This document shows, in pieces, positions 10,756 to 64,000 of a stretch of DNA of 64,000 bases. The stretch's first letter is position 1; every line of letters starts with the position of its first letter. The notes under the pieces are model-generated. The model was not told where the DNA came from, did no database searches, and worked only from the letters and a program-made list of their open reading frames with translations. Both the position numbers and the translations under genes were made by a program. The DNA is from Octopus vulgaris (lineage: Eukaryota): positions 1,798,001-1,862,000 of the forward strand of contig OX597820.1 of NCBI GenBank assembly GCA_951406725.2, read 5' to 3'.

Positions 10756-11078
10756 TATGATATAATTACATATTATATTTTATATTTTATATTTCTATTT
10801 CCTTGTCTATTTATATTTACTATATATTTTGTATAATGCCTTTACTGATATGTAATGGTGTAATAAAGTATTGATTGGGTATCATCTGATGGTTGATGTT
10901 TTATTGATTTAAGTATGTTTCTCCATTTTCTAATTTTGTTATATATATAACGGGAAGCTTTATGAAAATAGACAAAAGACGAAGGCAGGTTTACGGAAAT
11001 AAACAAAAGACGAAGGCAGGTGGAATACAAACAAACAATTGTATTAGTATGGCGCTCAGTAAATATAAATAAAACAAG

Positions 11079-11116
11079 TCTTTAACGTTTCGAGCCTACG
11101 CTCTTCAACAGAAAGA
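11079..11116 (-). ncRNA. Minimal hammerhead-like motif, U6 variant, in a solo Penelope terminus (10975-11170)
   Basis: TCTTT-CTGTTGA-A-GAGC-gtag-GCTC-GAAA-C-GTT-AAAGA; flanks homologous to 27873-28006. Confidence 0.6.
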
Positions 11117-11249
11117 TACACAGAGAAGAAACACAGAAAGAAGGAGAGAAAAAAATGCGTGCAGAGGCTATGAACAATTGCAGCGTTAAAAACACGCAAC
11201 ATTTAAAACACGCAACAACCGTTAGATTCACTTCAACATTTAAATTTAA

Positions 11250-11300
11250 TTTGCCAAATTATTTTCCTCACTTTTCGTCGCGATCTGCTCACTGACAAAA
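11250..11300 (-). ncRNA. Hammerhead-like motif, G3:C8 variant (partly decayed)
   Basis: TTTGTCA-GTGAGCA-G-ATCGC..GTGAG-GAAA-ATAATT-TGGCAAA; same family as 26005-26283. Confidence 0.5.
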
Positions 11301-11324
11301 TTCCGTGCTGCATCTGTATATATA

Positions 11325-11686
11325 TTCTTTTACTTGTTTTAGTCATTTTGACCGCGGCCATGCTGGAGCACAATCTTTAGTCGAACAAATCGACACCAGG
11401 GCTTATTTTTGAAAGCCTAGTACTTATTTATATCGGGTTCTTTTGCAGAACCGCTAAGTTACGGGTGTCAAGCGATGGAGGGGGAGAAACACGGACACAG
11501 ACACACACACACACACACACACACAAAGCGGGCTTCTTTCACTGTCCGTCTACCAAATCCACTCAGAAGGCATTGGTCGGCCCGAGGCTATAGTAGAAGA
11601 CACTTGCTCAAGATGTCACAGTGGGAGTGAACCCGGAACCATGTGGTTGGGAAGCAAGTTTCTTATCATACACCCACACCTGCGCC
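11325..11686 (-). mobile_element. Full-length OR-like SINE with internal (CA)n
   Basis: Head at 11686 and tail inverse of GCTCCAGCATGGCCGCAGTCAAATGACTGAAACAAGTAAAAG; same layout at 45955-46252 and 52097-52455. Confidence 0.85.
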
Positions 11687-11710
11687 TATATATATATATA
11701 TATATATATA

Positions 11711-13381: not shown

Positions 13382-13481
13382 NNNNNNNNNNNNNNNNNNN
13401 NNNNNNNNNNNNNNNNNNNNNNNNNNNNNNNNNNNNNNNNNNNNNNNNNNNNNNNNNNNNNNNNNNNNNNNNNNNNNNNNN
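13382..13481. other. Assembly gap (100 N)
   Basis: Direct reading. Confidence 1.
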
Positions 13482-16350: not shown

Positions 16351-16422
16351 TGGAGATACCGGGTCTCGAACCCGGGGCCTTTCGCTTGCGAAGCGAACGC
16401 TCTACCACTGAGCTATATCCCC
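16351..16422 (-). tRNA. tRNA-Ala(CGC)
   Basis: GGGGATATAGCTCAGTGGTAGAGCGTTCGCTT-CGC-AAGCGAAAGGCCCCGGGTTCGAGACCCGGTATCTCCA. Complete cloverleaf, G3:U70 alanine identity pair, discriminator A, intact A/B boxes. Confidence 0.95.
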
Positions 16423-16639
16423 AATATGCTTGAAGTTCTTTCCATAGACGTATTTATTTCCGACTTGGCTACGTGGTGCATGCTGGGAAATAGCTAGGTG
16501 GACGCTGTATGGGCGGGGCTGTCGGGAAGGAAAATCGATTTTATTTAGAATGTCTCAGCTTCGTCTCTACTGCAAGCACACATCGCCCGCGCGCGCGCCC
16601 ACTAGATTGCACACACGCATCTCCCCCATCCCCGCGCAT

Positions 16640-17700
16640 TCCTTCTTCTTTTCTTTCTCTCTATTCTTGAATCTTTGTTTCTTTCTTCATCTTGCTGTGA
16701 ATCACTCTCTCTCTCTCTGACTCCCTGTCTTCCTCTCCCTCCTTTCTCCACCAACCTCTCACTATCTCTCTCCTTACCCCTTCTCTCTCTCTCATCCTAT
16801 TCCTCTCTCTTCATCTTCCGACATTTTCCTTCTTGTTTCACTTTCACTTTCTTCCTTCAGCCATGTTTCTTATTTCCACATACCTCCCCCCTCACTCTAT
16901 CATTCTCTCCCCTCTTTTTTCACTCTCTCTCTCTCTATCATTTCCTAACTCATTCTCTCTTTCCCCTTCTCTCCCTCTCTCACTCTTTCATTCATATTCT
17001 TTCGCTTTCTCACCTTCTCTCTCTCTTTCTCTCTCTCATATACTCAATCCTGTTTTGGCACACATAAAATCACATGCGATGACAACGTTTCCTTCCTATT
17101 TCCTTCTTCCTCCTTTCTACCTTTTCATTCATACATTCTTTCTTTTTTCTTTCTTTTTTTCTTCTTTCTTACCCATTTTCTTTCCTTGCTTCTTTCTTTC
17201 TTCTCTCCTCTTTCTTTTTTCTTTCTTTTCATCTTTTCCTTCTTTCTTTCTTTCCTTCTTTCTTCTTTTTTCTTTTCCTTCCTTCTTTCTCTTTCTAGTG
17301 TTATTTCTCTCATTCGTTTTCTTTCTTTCCTCTCCTTCTTTCTTTCTTTCTTCCTTCCTTCCTTCCTTCCTTCCTACTTCTCCATCTATCTTTCTTTCTC
17401 TCATTCTTTTTCTTCTATCTTTTCCTTCCTTCCTTTTTCATTCGTTCTTTCTTTCCTTAATTTCATTCTCACATACATCTTCCTTCCTTCCTTCCTTCCT
17501 TCCTTCCCTTCCCTCTCCTCCTCCACCCCACCCATCCACCCACATGTTCTCTTTATCCTTTATATAATACACACACGTTTCTTTCTACGGCTTCTTCAAA
17601 CATTACGCATTCTCTCTTTCTTTCTCTCTTATCTTCCTTCCATCTCTCTCTCTCTCTTCCTCTCTCTCTCTCTCTTCCTCTTCATCCCTCCTTCTATTTG
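16640..17700. repeat. Polypyrimidine low-complexity tract (CT/CTT/CCTT)
   Basis: Direct reading. Confidence 0.9.
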
Positions 17701-18347: not shown

Positions 18348-18710
18348 ATAGTCTTAGGAGAGAAGGTAATTGGGGGTGATGAAGGAACGGTGGTGTGTTG
18401 GGGGTGGGGGTTTGGGTGGGGTGTCGTCAATCGGGTGGCCGGGTGGGTCTGTAATTTTTGTAGTTTGCATAGATTTTGTGCATACAGTTTGGGGAGTGTT
18501 CTGAGATCTTGATGAGGAGAGGGCCTTTGGCGGATAAGATCTCCAAGCTCTCAGAAATGCAAAGGTCACAGCAAGTATGGCCTCCCGTGTAAGAACGCGC
18601 TCTCTGGAGTAGTCTCCACTTGATCTTGAAGGGGATGGAGTTCCTTTTAAGGTGCCAGATATGGACGGTGAGAGTAGTCTGGTTAGATTTGTCAGGTCGC
18701 CGGAACGAAT
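18348..18710 (-). mobile_element. Penelope-like element C-terminal/3' fragment; shorter copy at 22187-22371
   Basis: Minus translation FRRPDKSNQTTLTVHIWHLKRNSIPFKIKWRLL...CDLCISESLEIL...LLIKISE...CMHK fits the PLE endonuclease tail pattern HIW.LK...I.W...C.LC..E...LLNK.SE...C.H. Confidence 0.7.
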
Positions 18711-18721
18711 GTATATATATA

Positions 18722-19090
18722 CTAGCAGTATCGCCCGGCGTTGCTCGGGTTTGTAAGGGAAATAACTATAAAGCATTTTTAGAGAGTTATAGCCAAAAAA
18801 TAGCAAAAAAATGGAAAAAAATTATGGTAAATTTTTTTTTAGTTAAAAAGGTCGAGTTGCGTCCCCTAGACAGTCTGTGGTTTGTGTTTCTGATTCTCGA
18901 CCCCATGTCGAATTTATCGATTTTTTTCAGAACTGTGGGAACTTTTCAAAATTTTCGTTGCGTTAGTTTTGAATTATGACATTGGGCTATGTGTGTGTCA
19001 AGTTTCATCAGAATCGGTTGAAAGCCGTGGTCAGGGTGAGGGTACAACCTAACAGACACACAGACAAACTGCCGTTTATATATAGAGAGA
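18722..19090 (-). mobile_element. Non-autonomous Helitron
   Basis: Minus strand starts TC (19090), ends CTAG (18722), has the hairpin CCCGAGC-AAC-GCCGGG just before the 3' end, and sits between A and T with no TSD. Confidence 0.85.
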
Positions 19091-25885: not shown

Positions 25886-26283
<398 letters not shown>

Positions 26284-26452
26284 TTCGTTCCAGTACACGA
26301 TCTCATACCAGGTCACTTGCTATGCAAGTACATCTCCGTAAATATATATATACTTGGAATTTACAATAAAAGAAACAAACAAAACAAAAGACGAAGACGG
26401 TGTGCAAACAACAAACAAATGTATTAGTTTTACGCTTGGGAAGTGAGAAAGT

Positions 26453-26488
26453 CTTTTACGTTTCGAGCCTACGCTCTTCAACAGAAAG
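26453..26488 (-). ncRNA. Minimal hammerhead-like motif, U6 variant, in a solo Penelope terminus (26360-26545)
   Basis: CTTT-CTGTTGA-A-GAGC-gtag-GCTC-GAAA-C-GTA-AAAG. Confidence 0.62.
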
Positions 26489-26678
26489 GAACACAGAAAT
26501 TAAAGAGAGAAAATGAAAAAGGTTTAGTGGCTAGCGATCAATCATATATATTTGTGTGTATGTGCGCGCGCGTGTATATATATATATATATATATATATA
26601 CGCACGCACATATTTACCATATACATAATATATACATATATATATATATATACACACACACACATATATACCATATAC

Positions 26679-26714
<36 letters not shown>

Positions 26715-27595
26715 GTATATGGTATATATGTGTGTGTATGTATATATATATTTATAAATATACATGTATGGTATATATATGTGTGTTTTTGCGTGTATCT
26801 ATATGTATGTATGTGTATATGTATGTATATATGTATGCATGTATTGTATATACGTATATACATACGCATCCGTCTGTAAAACACAGTGAGAAAAAATAGG
26901 AGGGAAAGTAGACCGGAGACAGGATAATAAGATGTAATTAGTAAAATAAAATAAAATAAAATATAAAGAAAAGAACAAAATATTTAAAAGAAGAACTGGA
27001 AAAAAATGAAATAATGAAGAAAATGAGGCAAAACGAAAGGAAAAAAATGAACAAGTACAACAACAACGACAACAATCACAACAGAAATGAGAACGACAAC
27101 AATAACCACAACAACAACAATACCGACAACAACAGTAACTGCAACAACAAATGGTATATGAATAAAAATCAATAGATGTGAAATTCCAAAACAGGTCGTA
27201 ACATCACGTGACGGAATATAATTTATCTTCTTATCGATCTTTCTCAGGTTTCTGTTCTTCGCAGAATATCGTAATAGTCGTCGTCGTCGTCGTCGTCGCC
27301 GTAATCGTCATCATAATGCGCGCGTGCGTGTGAGGGACTGCAGTGATGATCTCGAGATCGTGGTTTCGGTTTCCGGACCAGGCGGTGTTCTGCGATCATT
27401 CCGACAGCTAACGTGCGCCACATTTGTGCACCTGTACAGGTAATGCCGAATTGATGGAGGGAACCAGCTTATTTACAGCACAACCATTTCAAAGCATCCA
27501 CTCAAGCTGTCCATCAAGGAATTGCGGATCCCTAATCCCTCGTCTAACGACGGGGAAAGGGTCCACTATATATGTGCGTGTGTATGTGTGTCTGC

Positions 27596-27631
<36 letters not shown>

Positions 27632-27709
27632 CTGTCTTTGTATGCATGTACGTATGTATCTATCCATCTCTCTACTAGTACATATACATACATATATATA
27701 CATACATAT

Positions 27710-27783
<74 letters not shown>

Positions 27784-27872
27784 CACATATATATACATAC
27801 ATATACACATCACATTTACAAACACCACCCACAAGACCCAAGACCCCACATCTTGTACAAAACACATACATA

Positions 27873-30800
27873 TGTATTAGTATACACGCTCAGGAATAGA
27901 AAAAGTCTTTCACATTTCGAACCTACGCTCTTCGACAGAAAAGGACACAGAAAAAAAAAACAAGGAGAGAAAAAAATGCGTGTAGTGGCTAACGATCTAT
28001 CATGGCGTCTGACTTGGACAGAAGGGTCACACGCGAGAAGGAAAGTAGGGGAGATAACAAGGTAAAGATGACCCCCCAACACGAAGGTGCGTGTGTGTAT
28101 AAGAGAGTATGTATGTGCGTGTGAAAGAGGGCTTGTGGTCTGGACGTGTGCGTGTATGTATGTGTAGGGGTGAAGATGTGGGGATGGGTGTGTGGGTGGT
28201 GTGTTGTGATGTGATGTGTAATGTTGTATGGTGTAGTGTGGTGTCGTGTGATGTTGTTGGGAGGTCGAGGGAGGCGAGAGTGGAGAAAGCACGGGTGGGG
28301 TGTGGGTTCGGCTGAGGGTTGGGGTAGAGTTGGAGTTTGTGGGTGGGCAGAGGGTGTGGGTAGAGGTGGGGTATGTGGGGGAGGGTGTATGGGATAGGAT
28401 GGGGGGATGGGAAGGATAGGGAAGTTGGAGTAGGGATGTGTAAGGGTGGGTGGGCTTATGGGAGAGGGGAAGGTGGGTAAGTGAGGAGAGAGAGGAGGAG
28501 AGAAGAGAGAAAGAGAGTAAGAGAGAAGAGAGAAAGAGAGGGTGAAAGAGTAGGAGAGAAGAGAGAAAGAGAATAAGAGGGAAGAGGGAAAGAGGGGAGA
28601 GAAAGAGAGAAAGAGCGTAGGAGAGAAGAGAGAAAGAGAAAAAGAGAGTAAGAGAGAAGAGGGAGAGAGAATAGGGGGAAGAGAGGAGAGAAGGAGAGTG
28701 AGGGAGCAGAGAGAAAGAGAGAAGAGAGAGAGAAAGAGAGAAGAGAGAAAGAGAGTAGGGGTGAAAAGATGTAGGAGTGAAGAGAAGTAGGAGTCGGGGA
28801 GGAGGTTAGATGAAGAGGGGAGGAGAGTTGAGCCCAAATGGCGTAAAAGCGAAGAGAGAAGATTAATCCTTGTTCACGACGCAAACGGGAGTCCGGATGG
28901 CCTCTGTGCAAGGACAATCCGAACACAGACAAGACAAGTGTTGCAAGGAGTGACTGGTGGAGCGGAAATGACGTGAGACCGGGGTGTCATTGCCGAGGCG
29001 GATGTCTCGGAGGTGTTCCGCGAACCGGTCAGGCAAGCGGCGTCCCGTTTGTCCGATGTACAGGGAATGGCAGAGAGAGCAGGAGATGCAATAGATGATA
29101 TTGCTGGAGATGCAGGTGAAGGAGTCGATGGTGCGATAGGGTCGATGATGGGTGCCGGTGAGGAGGGTGGTGTTGGAGAGGTAAGGGCAAGTGCGGCAGC
29201 GTGGGCGGGAGAAGAGGAACGAGCCAGGTTGGGAGGTAGGGTTGGGGAAGAAGCTGTGGACCAAGAGGTCTCGTAGGTTGTGGGCTCGTTTGAAGGAGGG
29301 GAGGGGTCGGTTAGGGAAGATGTATGAAGTGGACGGGTCGGACTGGAGATGCCGGAAAACTCGGAGAATGGTGCGTTGGAGAGGTAGGGTGGTGGGGGTG
29401 GTAGGTGAGGGGAAAAGGGAGGCGGCGGACTGCAGAGCGAGTTCGGAGGGAGAGAGCAGATTCACGGTCCACGGAACGTGCTCTGGCAAGGGCAGTGTGG
29501 ATAGTGGTGAGGGGATATCCACGTAGGATGAAGTAGCGAGCCATGAGTTGAGACTGAGTCTCAAAGTCATGGTCGTCACTACAGAGCCTGCGTAGACGGA
29601 GGAATTGGGAATAGGGGATGGAAAGCTTGGTGTGTTTGAGGTGGGAGGAGAAGTTTAGGTATGAGTGTGAGTCTGTGTGTTTGTAGTGGATGGAGGTGGT
29701 AAGAGTGGAGTGATGAATGCTGACCGAAATGTCAAGAAAGGAGATAGAGGTGTCAGAGATAGTGTAGGAGAAGTGGAGAGCAGGATGGAAAGATTTGACG
29801 AAAGAGAGGAAGGAGTCTAGCTGTTCGCGGGAGAGTGAGGTGGCACCGATACAGTCGTCAATATAACGGCCATATAGATCGGGAGTGAGACCAATGAAAT
29901 TAGAGAATATTTGGGCCTCAACATAGCCAACGAACAGGTTCGCATAGTTGGGGCCCATTCTCGTTCCCATGGCCACTCTCGAAATTTGCTGGTAGAACTC
30001 GCCCGCGAACGAGAAGCAGTTGAGTGAGAGGACAAGTTCGGCCAGACGAACGAGTGCGGAGGTGTCGTGTTGGGGATTGGGTCGGAGGTCCAGGAAGTGT
30101 TTCAGTGCACGCAGCCCCTCGTGGTGAGGGATCACAGTGTAGAGGCTCTGGATGTCCATTGTAAAGAGAAGTTTGGAGGAGCCAGGAGGGAAGGAGAAAG
30201 AGTTGAATAAACGAAGAGCATGATCGGTGTCATGGATGTGACAAGAGAAGTCACTAGGGGGGCAAGGATACGGTCGAGATATTTGGAGATAAGCTCGGTG
30301 GGGCAGTTACAGGCGGAGACGAAGGGGCGGCCAGGGTTGTTGGGTTTGGGGATTTGGGGGAGAAAGTAAATGGTGGGGGTGCGGGGTGTTCGGACAATGA
30401 TGTCGGATGCGGTGTGGGGGGACAGGAGGACGAGATGAGGTCATGGATGGTAGAGGAGACCATCTGTTGGTAGCTGGGCGTAGGGTCAGAGGACAGAGGA
30501 CAGTAGAAGATGTCATGGAGTTGGCGGAGAGTTTCGGCCTTGTAGATGTCCACGCGCCATACCACCACAGCTCCACCCTTGTCGGCCGGTTTAATAACGA
30601 TGTCAGTGCGCCGTCGGAGGGAACGAAGAGCCGAGAGTTCGGCTGAAGAGATGTTGAGACGACGGGGACGCCTGGAGAAGTTGAACCGCTCCAAAGCGCG
30701 CTGACAGGCGCCCGCAAAAAGATCCACTACTTGGAACTGGCTAGGATCAGGCGTCCACTGGGATGGTCGGCGGCCCAGGTCAGTGAAGCTGTCCTTCTCG

Positions 30801-31240
30801 TTTGATGCGGGGGGAGTGTCGCGGAAAAGCGCATACAACCTAACGCGGCGCACAAAGCTGTGGATATCAGCACGGGTCTGAAATTCCTTACAGGATGGAG
30901 TGAGGGGGATGAAACGCAGACCCCTACTGAGGATGGAGCGCTCCGCCACAGAGAGGGTAAAATCTGGGGGAATGGTAACAACAGACTGAAGTGGAGAAGG
31001 GCTGGATGGAATAGAAGTAAGAAGGGTGGATGGAATAGAAGTAGGAGGGGTGGATAGGGTGGAGGTAGGAGGGGTGGTAGGGCTGGTGGAAGGCTGGGGG
31101 ATGTGTGAGGGGGTTCTGGAGGGACAGGGAGTTGGGTGTGGGTGGGTGGAGCATATCAGCGGGGAGAAGGATAGTGGCATCGGGTGTGATGGAATGGAGG
31201 AGTGAGTGGAGTTTACGAAGTTTGGTGTTGGCAAGAAATT
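27873..31240 (-). mobile_element. Penelope-like retroelement (RT + GIY-YIG endonuclease), 5'-truncated and frameshifted
   Basis: KPADKGGAVVVW, MDIQSLYT, AMGTRMGPNYANLF, YGRYIDD, FLDI; RPRCRTC linker; NIIYCISCSLCHSLYIGQTGRRL.DRFAEH; hammerhead-like motif at the 3' end (27907-27942). Confidence 0.95.
27907..27942 (-). ncRNA. Decayed minimal hammerhead-like motif (U6 variant) of the Penelope element
   Basis: TTTT-CTGTCGA-A-GAGC-gtag-GTTC-GAAA-T-GTG-AAAG; stem III and cleavage triplet are mutated. Confidence 0.5.
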
Positions 31241-31500: not shown

Positions 31501-31699
31501 GCGAGCTGGTAGATACGTTAGCACCACGAGCAAATGATTAGCCATATTTCGTCTGTCTTTACGTTCTGAGTTCAAATTCCGACGAGGGTGTCTTTGCCTT
31601 TCATCCTTTCGGGGTCGATAAATTAAGTACCGGTTGCGTACTGGCCCCCTTCCCAAAAGTTTCGGTCCTTATGCCTAGAGTAGTATGCCTAGGGTGTGC

Positions 31700-48415: not shown

Positions 48416-50035
48416 CAGTGGCGGCCAAAATGTTCAGAACGGCATTGTTTTCGTCAGAAAAGTAGGTATAATTTTTTATCAAAGTTGTTTTATATTCACA
48501 GACAATAAATACGATATTATTTGTTATTGCCTGAGATTTTGGTGTAATTTGAGAGGATAATACAAAAGTTATGGATGATTTAGTGATTTACTGCAAAACC
48601 TATGGCGGCCAAAATGATCAGAACGGTTGCTTTTACTCCGTGTTTTAGTATATTTAACCGGCGAACTCTAATGTTTTGAATTTGTTTATTTGACGGTTCG
48701 TTTACTAAACATTAGTAAGAATATTTGCAGTGTACTTTGTTAATATAATGCCACTTACTCCGTTACCAATTCGTCAGCAGATTATTAAGCTTTGAAGGAA
48801 GGATAATTTAAGTATTGGATCTATTGCAAAGATTGTTAACAAGTCAAAAAGTGTTGTACACGGTATTCTTAAGGTCTACGATGATTGTGGTTCGTGTGAA
48901 GCAAGAAAGTTTACAGGTAGGCCAAGAAAAACGACCAAGAGAAGATCGTGCTATGGTAAAGTTGGTTAAAAAGGACAGATTTAAAACTGCTGCTGCTGTT
49001 TCTCGGAAAATGAGCATTGTATTGAAGAAAACTTTATCTCGAAAAACTGTGTCTCGTCGTTTAGTTGAACATGACCTACAAGCAAGAGCACCTGCAGTGA
49101 AGCCACTGATCAGCTCCAAGAATAAAAAGTGTCGTCTTACCTTTGCAACCGAACATGTTTTGTGGTCTCAAGAAAAATGGCAAACAGTGCATTTCAGAGA
49201 TGAATCTAAGTTTATGCTATTTGGCTCAGATGGGAAAAGGTACGTTCGTAGAAAAGTAGGTGAAAAATTGTCGCCTAAATGCCTTAAGACTAGTGTTAAA
49301 TTCGGTGGAGAAAGTGTCATGGTTTGGGGATGATATCTGGAGATGGTGTGGGCCCTTTGGTGCGATTACATGGAAAGGTAAATGCAGGAGTTTATAAACA
49401 ACTTGTAAAAGATCATGTCTTGCCTGCCTGTGCTGAGAAATTCAACTAAGCGACCACCCATATTCATGCAGGACAATGCCCCATGTCACAAGGCTAAGGT
49501 GGTCATGAACTTCCTCAAGGCTGAAAAGGTTATTGTTATGGATTGGCCTGCTCAAAGCCCAGACCTCAATCTATTGAAAATGTGTGGAATATTCTAGGAG
49601 AACGTTTGATAGCCAGAAATCCTAAAACAACCGAGCAATTATGGAATGCCCTTCAGGAAGAATGGAATAAGATCACCCAGCAAGAAATTGAAAATTTAAT
49701 TTCCCCATGCAGTCGAAAATGTCAAACTTTGATTGAAGCTAAAGGGCTTCACACTAAATATTAAATAATTCCAGTATTCTCTGTCACTTTTTGATTATTT
49801 TGTTATTTTTTCAACCGTTCTGATCATTTTGGCCGCCATGGGTTTTGCAGTAAATCACTAAATCATCCATAACTTTTGTATTATCCTCTCAAATTACACC
49901 AAAATCTCAGACAATAACAATTAATATTGTATTTATTGTCTGTGAAAATTAAAGAATATAAAACAACTTTGATAAAATCTTATACCTACTTTTCTGACGA
50001 AAACAATGCCGTTCTGAACATTTTGGCCGCAACTG
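48416..50035 (+). mobile_element. Full-length Tc1 (DD34E) transposon with ~215-bp IR/DR-type TIRs; transposase pseudogene 48748-49764
   Basis: TIRs 48416-48629 / 49812-50035 each carry two copies of GGCGGCCAAAATG.TCAGAACGG; motifs FRDESKF, VMVWG, FMQDNAPCH, WPAQSPDLN; stops and frameshifts. Confidence 0.95.
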
Positions 50036-54691: not shown

Positions 54692-55982
54692 CGAGGGACG
54701 ATCAATAAGTAATGCCTCTGACCCATTTGCAGTTGTTTGATCTAGCTGAAATTTTGCATGTGCAATCATTTATATCTCTATAGAGTAAGTGGCAAATTAC
54801 AGTACTGAATTAATTGTGGTTTCTGATTTACAGGTGTTTGAACAGAGTCAAGTGTTAAATGGAGCCTGTTGAGTGTCGAGCAGTGATCCGGTTTTTGTAT
54901 TTGAAAGGACGCACACCACGGGAGACTTTTGATGAAATGAAAGTAACTTATGGTGATGATGCCCCATCATATGACCTTGTAAAACGCTGGCATCGTGAAT
55001 TCAAACATGGTCGGAACTCTGTCGAAACAGCTTCCAGATCTGGTCGCCCCCTTCTGCCATTGATGAGGCATCTGTCCGTCAAGTTGAGGCTGCTATTTTG
55101 GAAGATCGACACATAACTATTCGCCAAATAGCCCATGAGGTCAAGATTAGTACCGGGTCTGTGGAAACTATCATTCATGACCATTTGCATATGCAAAAGG
55201 TATCTGCCAGATGGATTCCCAGGCTGCTCACGCCTTTCCAGAAGCGAGAACGCGTCGAGTGCTCGAGGGTGAATTTGGAGATGTGCCAAGAAGATGAGTC
55301 AAAATTTTTCAAAAGACTGATTACACAGGATGAAACCTGGGTCCATCACGATGATCCAGAGACCAAAGCCCAGTCAATGCAGTGGAAGCACCGTGACTCA
55401 CCCCCTCCAAAGAAGGCAAGGGTGCAGCCCTCCGCTGGCAAGGTCATGCTCACAGTCTTCTGGGACCAGGAAGGAGTAGTGATGACAGATTTCCTGGCAA
55501 AGGGTACCACAATTGCAGGAGCCTATTATGCTTCACTTTTGAGGAAAATAAGAGAAGTTATCAAAATCAAGAGGCGGGGCAAGATCAGCAAAGGCAACCT
55601 CCTCCTGCAGGACAACGCTCCGGTCCACAACTCGCTTGTCGCCAGATCAGAAGCACAGGCGTATGGCAATGAACTCCTCCCCCATCCCCCTACTTTCCTG
55701 ACCTTGCACCCTCTGATTTTCACCTCTTCCCAGTCATGAAGTTGTTTTTGAAAGGAAAGCGTTTCCCAGATGATGCAGCCTTGATTTCTGAAGTCGCGTT
55801 CAGGTTGGAGGACCAAGCTGGGGTCTTCTATAAAAACGGTCTCCAGAGCTGCATCAAACAATGGTAGAAATGCGTAACTCTGGGTGGTTCCTATGTAGAA
55901 AAAGACTAATAACTGTACCAAGTTTCGTTGCTCTACTGCTATGGGAAGTGGGTCAGCGGCATTACTTATTGAACGCCCCTCG
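54692..55982 (+). mobile_element. Full-length mariner (DD34D) transposon; transposase pseudogene 54859-55909
   Basis: TA-flanked TIRs CGAGGGACGATCAATAAGTAATGCC / GGCATTACTTATTGAACGCCCCTCG; motifs WIPRLL, ITQDETWVHH, QDNAPVH, PDLAPSDF; two frameshifts and one stop. Confidence 0.95.
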
Positions 55983-56401: not shown

Positions 56402-56790
56402 ATTCTTCTCGTTGCTGCTTCGTGCGCCTACTTACGAAAGTCTTTTTGTGTCCATTTCCCTAAGAAATTTTTATTCTCACCTTGAAGTGGTAAAACCTCA
56501 TTTTGACGTCATTAATTTTACGAAGTCTCTTTCACATCAAAGTAAAATCTATTCACTTAGAATTACAAATATTTTCACCTCCGCCAATTCAATGTAAAGG
56601 TAGTTTGATGTTTTCGCCTATTGCCATCTTATTTTAATGAATTTCTTGTACTCTGATGAAATTCACGAACATCCTTGCTCCTTTTTTAAAGAATTTATGA
56701 GTAGTTAAAACGTAATCTGTGTTTTATAATGACTGATGATGTTTCTCATTGTCGTTTTACGTGATATCTCTGTTATTTCCTCTCTTTCAG

Positions 56791-57874
56791 GTATCTTCTA
56801 ACTGGAATGATTTCGACATCGGTATTTCTGTGGTTCTACCTTTCTGATAACCAAGCTAAACTAGAAACGATACTCGGACCTAAATGTGCCGCTCGAACTC
56901 ATGTCGTTTTTGTAAAAACACACAAAACTGCCAGTTCAACCGTGACAAACATCATCCAGAGATTCGGATTAAAACATCACCTTAGCTTTGTACTCCCGAA
57001 ATACCCGGAGAATTATTTATGGTTCGATAGTAATGCCTTTATCGATCGCTTGCTTCCACATCCCAATGGTACAGATAAAAAATTTGATTTGTTGTGTAAT
57101 CACGCAATTTATAACAGGTTTGCCATAACAAAACTGATGCATAATAACACTGCATACATAACAATCTTGCGTCATCCAGTGAATCAGTTTTTGTCAGCAT
57201 TTTACTTTTATCGTACCGTGTACAAAATCCCGTATTTAGTCCGTATACCTGGACCCAATCCAGTTGAGGAATATTTGAAAAATCCTGCGAAATATGAACC
57301 CGTATCAAACTATGCTTCCTATACAAACAACAGAATGACAATTGATCTTGGTATTCCAAGACTAGTTTTCGACCAACCTGCGCTATTGACTGGTTTTATT
57401 AATAAAATTGATGAAGAGTTTGATTTTGTGATGATAATGGAGTATTTTGCTGAGTCGCTGGTTTTGTTGAAGCGTCTGATGTGTTGGAGAATGGAAGACA
57501 TTATCTCCATGAGAATGAACATATTTGATAAGGATGAAGTCAACATGCCACTGAAAGCTGGAATGTTCAACAGTATTAAAAAATGGGCTCATGCCGATCT
57601 TGAATTGTATGAATATTTTTACCGAAAGTTTTGGAGGAGAATAAACCAGATGAAACAAGATTTTTGGAGAGAAGTTGAAATCTTTAAAGAAATACAGCTG
57701 AAAGTTGAAAATTACTGCCTGAATTTAAATGCATCTCAAGATTTGCTTCTGATTGATGGAAGTGAATGGAATGATAGATTTTTGGTCAGCAATGAAACGT
57801 GTAAACTGTTAAATATGAAAGAAGTGAAATTCATTAATTATCTGAGGACTCAGCAGAAAATTGATGTAAACTGA
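56791..57874 (+). CDS. Galactose-3-O-sulfotransferase (Gal3ST/cerebroside sulfotransferase) family protein, main and last coding exon
   Basis: Intact 355-aa ORF with N-terminal hydrophobic segment, 5'-PSB motif VFVKTHKTASST, 3'-PB motif ITILRHPV.QFLSAFYF and DFVMIMEYF.ESLVLLKRLMCW; strong acceptor TTTCCTCTCTTTCAG at 56790. Confidence 0.93.
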
Positions 57875-60505: not shown

Positions 60506-61497
60506 TAAAAGAATAATAATAATAATATTCGATCCTTTTGCGTAAGTTATTCAGCACACAATCTTTTCATCAAAATTAAAGCCAGATGAGTTATTTCCCT
60601 TGCCTCAATTTTTATTTTATGTAAATCGCGATTATTCATTTCTTTTTCTTTTTCTTCCTTTTTTTGTACAAAAACCTTTGTTGATTAATCAAAGTTCCTG
60701 TTTAACTTCAGGAACAATGAAGCACCGAACAAATTAAATTTCTAAACAAGGGTTCCAGCGTATTATCTTAGGAATGGTCTAGCTTCGTATATATGACCAG
60801 GGTCGTGTTTTTTTTTTTTTGAGATATTTCTGTAAGGGAAAGTCCCTCTCGTATGCTATCAAATACGGCAATTTGGGAAGAAAAAATACAAAAATATAAA
60901 TATTGGATCCAATGTATCAACTCTGTGACAAAAGCCTTATAAAACCATATCAACATTTCTATTTTGGTTATCACCTCTTAATATTCGAGGACCGGTGCTA
61001 CTTTGGCGTGTGATCTACAAGGAAGATTGATTTAGCTGAGGTTTAGTTTACTTTTCCGTTTCTGAAAACTCGTAAGATGCTGGCTAAAGATTTTTACAAT
61101 GTGATCAGTGATGAGATGAAGGCAGTTTCATTTTTACAAGAAACCAGCATTAAATTCACATCATTTCTTAAGACAAAGAAACGTGCCTCTTTGCCAAGTG
61201 ATTTACAATTTAAAGGGACATTGCTTTAGATTACCTTTTTTTAAGTTTTCTTTACATCCGGGCTACTTTCCACGTGATCTGCATGAGCAAATTTACTTTG
61301 GTGGGTGATATACGCGCTTATTTTAATTATTATATGTTTTTTTATTATTATCAAACTAGTATTTTGAAAACTGATTTAAAAAGTAGCCTAAAGTAATCTC
61401 CCTTGTGGGTCTCTCGCCAAAGGGGCACCCGAGGAGGAGCTTTGTATTCTAAACGATGCACATGAATAGGAATGTATGGACGTGACGGAGTAAAAAA

Positions 61498-61545
<48 letters not shown>

Positions 61546-61561
61546 GATAATAATAATAATG

Positions 61562-61628
<67 letters not shown>
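61498..61628. repeat. (TAA)n microsatellite
   Basis: Direct reading; target of the adjacent LINE. Confidence 0.98.
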
Positions 61629-61630
<2 letters not shown>

Positions 61631-64000
61631 GGAATGCACAAAAAGCTGGCTGAAAACTTTAACAACGTACTAGCAGAGCCAGAGACAATGCCTGAATGGC
61701 TCACGAAGGGGAAAACCATCTTAATTCCCAAATCAAATGAAACAGCAAAACCAGAAAACTACAGACCAATAACCTGCCTCCCTACTATGTTCAAGGCATT
61801 TACTGTAGTGATATCGCAAAGGCTGAACAAGCACCTGGACGAAAACAAACTGTTCCCAGAAGAGCAGAAAGGATGCCGCAAAGGCTCATATGGCTGTAAA
61901 GATCAACTAATGATTAATAAAGCCATAACTGAAGACAGCCACAGAAAGAAGAAAGGCCTCAGTATGGCCTGGATTGACTACAAAAAGGCGTTTGATAGCA
62001 TCCCCCACACATGGATCCTCGAAACACTACCCATTAACAAAGTAGCACCAACAATTATAAAATTCATTGGGCACGCTATGAATAAATGGCAAACAGTGCT
62101 ACAGCTCCAAACAAAAGAGGGACTCATGAAAACCAAAGCCATCCCCATTAGAAGAGGAATATTCCAGGGAGACACGCTCTCTCCACTCCTTTTCTGCTTG
62201 GCACTGTCACCTCTATCTGATATGCTAAATAGAACTGGATGCGGATATAAATGTTACGGCAAAACGATCAGCCACCTTTTATATATGGATGACCTAAAAC
62301 TATACGCTGCAAATGACAAACAGCTGGAAACACTATTAAAGACAGTTCATGAATTTACCAAAGAAATAGATATGAAATTTGGATTAGAAAAATGCGCCAA
62401 AGTAACCATGAAAAGAGGAAAACTAGTTAAGAGTAGCAACATCACACTAGATAAAACCAATGAAATAAAAGAATTAGATCAAAGCCAAACTTACAAATAC
62501 TTAGGAATCCATGAAATAGATAAGACACAACACACACAAATGAAAGAGAAAATAAAAAAAGAATATTATAGACGAGTTAGATCAATACTAAACACAGAGC
62601 TCAATGCTAAAAACAAGATAATAGGTATTAACACTTTAGCTGTCCCAGTTATAAGTTACAGCTACAATATCCTTAAGTGGACACTAAATGAACTGACCAA
62701 AATAGATAGGAAAACAAGAAAAATAATGACGGTCTAGGATGCATCACCCAAAATCTGACATAGAAAGACTATACATACAACGTATAGAAGGTGGTAGAGG
62801 CCTTATACAGCTGGAAAACTACTATAAAATAACCACCATAGGACTGTAAAAAAAATATCTACTTCAGAAGGAAGGAAAACTGATACAAATAGCGGCAAAA
62901 CACGAGCAAAACAAAAAACTGTTCTCAGTATTTAAGGAAGCTGACAAATACAAACAAGAAATCATACCACCTAATAAACATGAAGAAGAAGAAGAAGAAG
63001 AAGAAGAAGAAGAAGAAGAAGAAGAAGAAGAAGAAGAAGAAGAAGAAGAAGAAGAAGAAGAAGAAGAAGAAGAAGAAGAAGATGATGATGATGAAGAAAC
63101 AACAAAAGCTATAAAACAAATGAAATCCAAACTAAAACTAGAACAGCAAAGAACCATGATAAAACGATGGCAAGAAAAACCCCTTCACGGTAAATACTGG
63201 ACTAAACTAAATGCAAAAGAAATAGACAAAGAAAAAATCCCAGCAATGGTTGAGAAGCTCAGGACTCAAAGCAGAGACAGAGGGATTTTTAATTGCAGCA
63301 CAAGACCAAAGCCTCCCCACCAGAAATTACCAAAAACATGTAATGAAAAGAAATATAACAAGTAACTGCAGAATATGTGGAGATGGACAAGAAACAATAA
63401 ATCATATTACCTCTGGTTGCCCAGTCCTGGCTAAGAAGGAATATATTCACAGACATGACAGAGTTGGAACCTACATACACTGGAAGCTATGCCAACATTA
63501 TGGAATAACAACAGAAAAAAGATGGTATAGGCACACACCAGAAAAGGTCACAGAAAACGAGAAAGCAACCATACTTTGGGATATGCCGATACACACAGAT
63601 AGAGAAATTAAGGCCAACAGACCAGATATAGTTGTCAGAGATCATGAAGAAAAAAATGCTTTCTAATTGATGTATCAATACCGGCAGATGACAACGTGTC
63701 TCTAAAAGAAATGGAGAAACTTTCAAAATACAAAGACCAGGAAATGGAGGTAACCAGAATGTGGAATCTAAAAACAGAAACAATTCCTATCATAGTAGGT
63801 GCATTAGGCATGATAAAAAAATATTCAGACAAATACATAACAAAAACATCAGGACTTACAAACACATATAACATACAGAAAATTGCACTACTAGGCACTG
63901 CACACATCCTACGCAGAACACTTTCCATACAATAACCATCAGAGCATCACAACAAATCACAGCACATACCCAAGGCACACAGACCTGCGCTCGGTAGTGA
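61629..64000 (+). mobile_element. R4/Dong-clade LINE (RT + CCHC + RLE), 5'-truncated and frameshifted, runs off the window
   Basis: NYRPITCL, IDYKKAFDS, GIFQGDTLSPLLF, HLLYMDD, CRICG...ETINHITSGC, RHD, RPDIV, EKLSKY, IPIIVGALG; stop at 63935. Confidence 0.95.

What the first reader, a model, noticed from the sequence alone, without database searches (positions are those of the whole stretch)
26453..27942. Penelope terminal hammerhead with U at the normally invariant A6, shared by three diverged copies
Seen: CTGTTGA or CTGTCGA + A + GAGC-gtag-GCTC + GAAA-CGT-H + stem I at 11079, 26453 and 27907, all minus strand. The flanks have diverged between copies but U6 is constant. One copy lies at the 3' end of the RT/GIY-YIG element on the sense strand. 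Inference: U6 is the family state rather than decay, so it is either a new tolerated core variant or a ribozyme-derived structure kept for another role such as RT recognition.
Basis: partly seen in the sequence, partly recalled or inferred. Interest (0 to 1): 0.72.

Follow-up and report, generated by a model that had tools for sequence, protein, structure and literature searches.

The report
Jumping-gene ribozyme with altered catalytic core
Three separate copies of a jumping gene's self-cutting RNA motif share the same change at a position that is almost always adenine, which suggests this lineage spread with a weakened or repurposed ribozyme and offers a natural test of whether these elements need to cut their own RNA.

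Summary
The motif is real: three minus-strand copies (C3 at 11111, 26484, 27938) of a minimal type-I Penelope hammerhead, each with U at position 6; a descriptor finds these 3 and 0.01 per shuffled window. Copy C lies 868 nt after the stop of a 5'-truncated, frameshifted Neptune-clade RT/GIY-YIG ORF. U6 is inherited, not decay: copies A and B differ at 1 of 37 motif positions but 32 of 142 flank positions (p=0.002), so the U6 motif was kept while flanks diverged; copy C shows no such excess conservation. New point: U6 lets the core zip into a closed hairpin (pair probability about 0.9 in A and B, at most 0.04 with A6, at most 0.09 in C). Best reading: an attenuated, latched, probably protein-assisted dimeric ribozyme (0.45); rival: dead ribozyme kept as a protein-binding hairpin (0.28). 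No copy outside the window could be obtained and no activity was measured. Natural A6C is published; A6U in a PLE family was not found in the searches made. New variant of a known kind; interest 0.5.

The parts
11079..11115 (-). Copy A: minimal type-I hammerhead motif, U6 (11108), N17 = U (11084)
10951..11170 (-). Solo 3'-end (pLTR) fragment holding copy A; ends in (TA)n; has an internal duplication of about 30 nt downstream of the motif; upstream homology stops near a MITE-like piece at 11200-11315
26452..26488 (-). Copy B: minimal type-I hammerhead motif, U6 (26481), N17 = A (26457)
26351..26533 (-). Solo 3'-end (pLTR) fragment holding copy B, between TA-rich microsatellites; ends about 106 nt after N17 in (TA)n
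27906..27942 (-). Copy C: same motif with U6 (27935), C7, G.U in stems I and II, U15.2 and G17 (27911); not expected to cleave
27872..27991 (-). pLTR part of the ORF-bearing element, homologous to A and B; homology ends about 39 nt after N17
27992..28805 (-). CT-rich then CA-rich stretch between the ORF stop and the pLTR block, taken as the element's 3' UTR (inferred from unbroken strand skew)
28806..31006 (-). 5'-truncated Neptune-clade Penelope-like ORF (DKG motif, RT with YIDD, CxxC linker, GIY-YIG), broken by frameshifts near 30420, 30242, 29380 and two in the last 130 nt; no stop codon in the 675 codons scored
27780..27872 (+). Inverted 79% copy of 3' UTR 28155-28244 abutting the 3' end of copy C

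Best explanation
The motif is the terminal hammerhead of a Neptune-clade Penelope-like retrotransposon, in a lineage where A6 became U6 once and stayed while sub-lineages diverged. Shown: the anatomy, the shared U6, the link of one copy to the ORF, and excess conservation of the motif between A and B. Inferred: in tandem precursor RNA two motifs pair through the palindromic ACGU to form the usual dimeric core and cut after N17, but far more slowly than an A6 core, for two reasons: loss of the A6 contacts, and a 4-bp helix (U4-G16.2, G5-C15.2, U6-A15.1, U7-A14) that only U6 allows and that holds the free RNA in a closed hairpin. Cutting would then depend on the element's own protein (or high Mg/Mn) opening the hairpin, so that most tandem transcripts stay uncut as templates. 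Copy C is a copy whose motif has since drifted and is probably inactive.
For: All other invariant core positions, G10.1-C11.1, the extra base after A9, the ACGU palindrome and an allowed N17 are present in A and B and match the published PLE consensus. Motif A vs B: 1 of 37 differences, and that one at N17, against 32 of 142 in flanks (Fisher p=0.0024); after masking homopolymer runs 0 of 21 vs 8 of 42 (p=0.03). Position 6 is not absolute: natural A6C in phage Bcep176 cleaves (0.041/min at 10 mM Mg, 0.31 at 1 mM Mn) and an engineered A6C reaches 0.33/min at 10 mM Mg (PMC7151607; PMC3088659). The one PLE hammerhead tested with its protein cleaves only with the protein (PMC11167929). Zipper pair probabilities 0.77-0.96 (A) and 0.77-0.92 (B) with U6, at most 0.04 with A at 6; closed form 3.4 and 2.4 kcal/mol below the open-core monomer. 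Nearest published motif, from an Acropora Neptune element, has the same 4-bp/4-nt stem II layout and the same GCUC-GAAA-C-GU arm with A6, and the RT is close to Neptune1_Ap (by eye), so U6 looks derived.
Against: No activity measured and no A6U rate found. A6C drops about 1e5-fold at 0.3 mM Mg and a deep scan found low activity for mutants of the CUGA turn (PMC9901934 passage); those ribozymes have tertiary contacts that this minimal one lacks. n = 3. On the branch to copy C the motif is not better conserved than flanks (5 of 37 vs 16-18%, p=0.36-0.49), G17 is present and the zipper is lost (at most 0.09). No compensatory change supports any helix. Folding z-scores are unremarkable (-0.17, 0.81, 0.67) and the centroid for A in a wider window differs from the hairpin. 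Keeping 11 core bases over 22% divergence has p=0.06 on its own, so catalysis-specific selection is not shown.
Confidence: 0.45

Rival explanations
1. Catalytically dead, re-purposed motif: U6 converts the hammerhead into a continuous hairpin (stem II, tandem G.A, 4-bp zipper, stem I) that the element keeps as a binding or positioning signal for its RT/EN protein, about 100 nt upstream of where reverse transcription starts.
For: U6 closes the core. Catalytic mutants of the PAc hammerhead did not affect insertion in vitro and no reads ended at its cut site (PMC11167929). Naiad PLEs thrive without canonical hammerheads (PMC8557442 passages). Copy C, only about 2-4% decayed by its ORF (17 of 201 conserved columns changed vs 2-9% in relatives), has G17 and differs from A/B at 5 of 37 sites, more than 3% decay predicts (p=0.005), so some departures may have been in its master. 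A and B end 133 and 106 nt after N17, near the 85-92 nt spacing derivable from PAc.
Against: The zipper is not kept in C. No covariation for the zipper pairs among 3 copies.
Confidence: 0.28
2. Neutral relic: the ribozyme was lost in one master element, U6 rode along, and the motif only looks conserved because the T-rich flanks mutate faster.
For: Flanks are low-complexity and gapped. C branch shows no excess conservation. Cleavage may be dispensable.
Against: The A/B contrast survives masking of homopolymer runs (p=0.02-0.03); about 8 changes expected on the A+B branches, 1 seen (p=0.002).
Confidence: 0.13
3. Overlapping splice signal: U6 and U7 are the -6 and -5 bases of a 3' splice site whose AG is A9a-G10.1, so splicing of a pLTR intron favours U6 at the cost of catalysis. 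Can coexist with the best explanation.
For: Each copy has an AG-free stretch of 53-63 nt, 77-81% pyrimidine, ending at that AG; 5.8% of 6813 AG intervals in the window are 55 nt or longer. The D. virilis Penelope intron ends at its hammerhead (PMC4209133).
Against: U-rich 5' flanks are in the general PLE hammerhead consensus; -3 is A rather than a pyrimidine; the three tracts are homologous, so not three independent observations; no splice-site model or transcript data were available.
Confidence: 0.09
4. The family state is A6 and the window happens to hold three members of a minor U6 branch.
For: 56 of 56 published representatives have A6. No outside copy was seen.
Against: 3 of 3 dispersed copies, 16-22% apart in flanks, carry U6; at a 10% genome-wide share this has p=0.001 (arithmetic). 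The published set came from a descriptor that fixes A6.
Confidence: 0.05

Closest known systems
Minimal type-I hammerheads of metazoan Penelope-like elements (Cervera and De la Pena 2014, PMC4209133), nearest the Acropora digitifera Neptune motif
   Same: Position in the pLTR on the sense strand; consensus layout with extra base after A9, G10.1-C11.1, loopless palindromic stem III, short stem I, U-rich 5' flank; mostly solo dispersed copies.
   Different: U at position 6 (A in 56 of 56 listed representatives); a core-closing helix made possible by U6; G17 in one copy. No cephalopod is in that list.
Bcep176 A6C hammerhead (Perreault 2011, PMC3088659; Naghdi 2020, PMC7151607)
   Same: Natural pyrimidine at position 6 of an otherwise standard core.
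   Different: C rather than U; a single phage motif tested as a monomer, not a repeated retroelement motif; C6 would not form the zipper here (at most 0.04).
PAc (Poseidon, Anolis) protein-assisted hammerhead (PMC11167929)
   Same: PLE terminal hammerhead roughly 90-130 nt upstream of the element's 3' end; insertion into AT-rich DNA.
   Different: Different PLE clade; ORF starts inside that motif, whereas no translation of this motif was found at the ends of the 120 relatives; its base at position 6 was not in the passages read.
Neptune clade of EN+ Penelope-like elements (Neptune1_Ap, Neptune1_Nv; PMC8557442 supplement)
   Same: RT then CxxC linker then GIY-YIG; RT motif region closely matches the Neptune1_Ap row; ends in (TA)n.
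   Different: This copy is truncated and frameshifted, and the first Cys of the linker motif reads Phe; best database relatives are 60-64% identical.

Membership tests
Hammerhead ribozyme (type I, minimal PLE form) | Core C3 U4 G5 . N7 G8 A9 and G12 A13 A14 A15.1 U16.1 | tested here: met
   3 of 3 copies
Hammerhead ribozyme (type I, minimal PLE form) | A at position 6 | tested here: not met
   U in 3 of 3 copies; natural A6C exists, so this lowers but does not exclude working like a hammerhead
Hammerhead ribozyme (type I, minimal PLE form) | H (not G) at position 17 | tested here: inconclusive
   U in A, A in B, G in C: 2 of 3
Hammerhead ribozyme (type I, minimal PLE form) | Stems I and II closing the core, G10.1-C11.1 | tested here: met
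   24 of 24 cells paired, no double-sided change
Hammerhead ribozyme (type I, minimal PLE form) | Palindromic 15.1-16.1 allowing a dimeric stem III | tested here: met
   ACGU in A and B; AUGU (G.U pairs) in C
Hammerhead ribozyme (type I, minimal PLE form) | Site-specific self-cleavage after N17 | not testable with these tools
   needs a bench assay
Hammerhead ribozyme (Rfam families) | Match to a curated covariance model | tested here: not met
   no hammerhead family among rows shown; that Rfam lacks a model of the loopless PLE form is recalled
EN+ Penelope-like element | Single ORF with RT and C-terminal GIY-YIG | tested here: met
   RVT_1 E=8e-6 and GIY-YIG E=0.002, both below gathering score as for intact relative P0009's GIY-YIG; collinear tblastn to full-length relatives
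EN+ Penelope-like element | Hammerhead-like motif in the 3' pLTR, sense strand | tested here: met
   copy C, 868 nt after the stop; continuity of the UTR is inferred
EN+ Penelope-like element | Tandem or partial-tandem arrangement with a 5' pLTR | tested here: inconclusive
   copy is 5'-truncated; no upstream pLTR
Neptune clade | CX2-5CxxC motif before GIY-YIG and Neptune-type RT motifs | tested here: met
   CxxC present, first Cys degenerate; relatives have the full motif; RT rows compared by eye with Neptune1_Ap and Nematis
Neptune clade | Placement in the clade on a tree with labelled references | not tested
Non-LTR retrozyme | Short tandem units each with a type-I hammerhead | tested here: not met
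   copies are dispersed and single; B and C are 1454 nt apart with unrelated DNA between; definition from bioRxiv 10.64898/2026.07.22.740005 part 1

The most novel reading that the evidence does not exclude
A successful PLE lineage has turned its hammerhead into a conformational switch or a purely structural signal: one core substitution closes the active site into a hairpin that the element's protein recognises or must open, and the motif stays under selection. It would be a natural separation-of-function allele for PLE ribozymes, and would imply a class of position-6 variants invisible to all CUGANGA-based surveys.
Probability: 0.3. Interest if true: 0.75.

Novelty: new variant of a known kind. 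Interest (0 to 1): 0.5.

Why it matters
Why nearly all Penelope-like elements carry a slow hammerhead is an open question: cleavage was dispensable for insertion in the one in-vitro system (PMC11167929) and whole clades lack the motif (PMC8557442). A family that fixed a core change yet kept the rest of the motif lets one ask directly whether the selected property is cleavage or shape. If it cleaves, A6U joins the short list of tolerated natural core variants; if it does not, it is a ribozyme re-used as a structural element. Either way descriptor-based counts of PLE hammerheads miss such families.

Tried and rejected
Translations of one stop-free frame across the motif, in which the residue would report position 6, found nothing: no candidate, 27-88 aa; 0 of 1628 candidates at E<=10; 1 hit in 1.84 billion, an unrelated tandem repeat; no hit. 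Only 1 of the 5 usable frames was tried. The GTDB scan gave 3 matches, all in bacterial reading frames without stem I or flank homology: chance. The source organisms of the RT relatives could not be looked up. Literature: 'hammerhead'+'A6U' gave 3 papers, 2 listed, neither on this by title; motif strings gave 0 papers; 'hammerhead' with CUGUUGA/CUGUCGA gave 19, 18 listed, none on PLEs by title; one search was swamped by miRNA hits; octopus/hammerhead/Penelope gave 79, 30 listed, none of these with both octopus and hammerhead in title or abstract; no motif string in the Craig 2021 supplement and no ribozyme mention in the O. vulgaris repeat supplement. Lunse 2017 (about PLE hammerhead variants) and Arkhipova 2017 were not held and may bear on novelty; Perreault Figs S6/S7 and the eLife scan's per-mutant values were not seen. 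Rejected: (1) shifted register UUGAAGA as U3..A9, which would restore A6 and has a precedent in Saccoglossus: it leaves a 2-bp stem II with a 2-nt insert and a G2.1/A1.1 mismatch in stem I, and fails in copy C (direct reading). (2) Independent decay. (3) Local duplication: flanks beyond the fragments are unrelated. (4) A-to-I editing: would give G, not U (established knowledge). (5) A motif on the plus strand: none. My first flank comparison included non-homologous sequence and overstated divergence for pairs with C; one search replaces it.
Full report
Observation. A descriptor with free positions 6 and 17 finds exactly these three sites; 100 block shuffles give 0.01 on average. Stems I and II pair in 24 of 24 cells, with no compensatory change. 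No Rfam hammerhead family appears in the rows shown.

Context. Copy C lies 868 nt after the stop of an ORF at 31006-28806 that is collinear with full-length RT/GIY-YIG proteins 60-64% identical in the RT. It lacks roughly the first 160 residues, is broken by frameshifts, and has no stop codon in 675 codons scored; 17 of 201 conserved columns differ, against 2-9% per piece in relatives, which I convert to about 2-4% nucleotide decay (inference). A CxxC linker before GIY-YIG and an RT motif region very like the Neptune1_Ap row of the Craig 2021 supplement (compared by eye) place it in the Neptune clade; no labelled tree was built. A and B are solo 3'-end fragments of about 220 and 180 nt that end in (TA)n, the target noted for such elements (PMC8557442 passages). 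The host was not established by any search. A SINE-like stretch near 31510-31680 and the microsatellite load recall an octopus genome (recalled; a string search found no paper). If so, PLEs cover 6.83% of O. vulgaris in 190 families (PMC13282606 supplement search) and many copies should be available for the decisive count.

Is U6 inherited? Yes. The insertions are dispersed with unrelated outer flanks, and three independent A-to-T changes at one site have a probability near 1e-4 or lower. Within strict homology limits A and B differ at 1 of 37 motif positions (N17) and 32 of 142 flank positions (p=0.0024). Masking homopolymer runs gives 0 of 21 against 8 of 42 (p=0.03); about 8 changes were expected on the A and B branches. 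So A and B most likely come from master lineages that diverged while the U6 motif was held fixed. Against this: pairs with C show 5 of 37 against 16-18% (p=0.36-0.49), so no excess conservation on that branch. C's departures may be decay (2.2 expected from its flank branch, p=0.18) or partly present in its master (p=0.005 at 3% decay). Three of three gives only a lower 95% bound of 0.37 for the genome-wide share of U6. All attempts to see outside copies failed; viral and metagenome contigs were closed and stayed unchecked.

What U6 does. Published data concern A6C: a natural phage variant cleaves at 0.041/min in 10 mM Mg and 0.31/min in 1 mM Mn, and an engineered A6C falls from 0.30 to 3.6e-6/min at 0.3 mM Mg but reaches 0.33/min at 10 mM (PMC7151607, passages and Discussion; PMC3088659, passages and section 8). 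A deep scan reports low activity for CUGA-turn mutants (PMC9901934, passages; per-mutant values not seen). I found no A6U rate. Folding adds a second effect specific to U: U4-G5-U6-U7 can pair with A14-A15.1-C15.2-G16.2. Pair probabilities are 0.77-0.96 in A and 0.77-0.92 in B, at most 0.04 with A, C or G at 6, and at most 0.09 in copy C; the closed hairpin lies 3.4 and 2.4 kcal/mol below the open-core monomer, and the gap between the best dimer fold and the active dimer widens by 3.0 and 4.8 kcal/mol. Limits: nearest-neighbour energies ignore tertiary contacts, z-scores against shuffles are unremarkable, and the centroid for A in a wider window differs.

Mechanism. PLE minimal hammerheads are slow and work as dimers through a palindromic stem III (PMC4209133, parts 1-2 of 4 and supplement parts 1-2 of 3; review PMC6765202, passages). 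The one tested with its own protein cleaves only when the protein is present, and its catalytic mutants still support insertion (PMC11167929, passages and second part of the main text). I therefore read this motif as a further attenuated ribozyme that rests in a closed state and cuts, if at all, when the element's protein opens it (0.45). That it keeps every other catalytic base and an allowed N17 in A and B favours retained chemistry, but only weakly (p=0.06). The main rival is a dead ribozyme kept as a protein-binding hairpin (0.28). Lesser rivals are a neutral relic (0.13), an overlapping splice acceptor at A9a-G10.1 behind a 53-63 nt AG-free pyrimidine tract (0.09), and a minor U6 branch of an A6 family (0.05). 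A shifted register that would restore A6 fails both stems.

Comparison and novelty. It is built like the published PLE minimal hammerheads, closest to the Acropora Neptune motif, but fails the A6 criterion met by 56 of 56 listed representatives. Those surveys, and Craig 2021, used descriptors that fix A6, so a U6 family would have been missed. I do not file it as a proven hammerhead ribozyme, since cleavage is untested; it is a hammerhead-derived PLE motif. Searches (listings only) found no report of A6U in a PLE. Lunse 2017 and Arkhipova 2017 could not be read, and bioRxiv 10.64898/2026.07.22.740005 was read in part 1 of 5 only, without supplements; PMC12192606 was seen as two passages.

Noticed in passing
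window 18430-18762 (-): C-terminal fragment of a second, unrelated GIY-YIG protein, probably another PLE family: Atlas feature score 0.96 to eukaryotic GIY-YIG fragment clusters, no Pfam hit, no similarity to the Neptune endonuclease piece; no hammerhead follows it.
   Followed up: partly
window 27780-27872 (+) vs 28155-28244: An inverted, only 79% identical copy of part of the 3' UTR directly abuts the 3' end of copy C; too diverged to come from the same insertion if the copy is 2-4% old. It could fold back on the UTR around the motif.
   Followed up: partly
window 11048, 26428, 27881 (-): A conserved ACTAATAC block 29-36 nt after N17 in all three copies, followed in A and B by 83 and 68 nt without AG: resembles a branch point plus pyrimidine tract; loop II GUAG follows a C and could be a donor. 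Possible pLTR intron signals.
   Followed up: partly
window 26005-26283 and 11200-11315: MITE-like element with 130-nt, 96% inverted arms 67 nt from the end of fragment B; a partial copy sits just upstream of fragment A.
   Followed up: no
window 16351-16422 (-): tRNA gene, Rfam 72.8 bits, next to a long CT-rich tract at about 16620-17700.
   Followed up: no
window 56765-57874 (+), 61466-62737 (+), 54999-55739 (+), 48812-49333 (+): Galactose-3-O-sulfotransferase exon, a LINE-type RT, a mariner-type transposase and a Tc1/Tc3-type transposase fragment.
   Followed up: no
window 31510-31680 and 11340-11700 (-): Two SINE-like repeats; the second has many copies in the window. Their likeness to octopus SINEs is recalled, not tested.
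   Followed up: partly
window 13382-13481: Assembly gap of 100 N.
   Followed up: no
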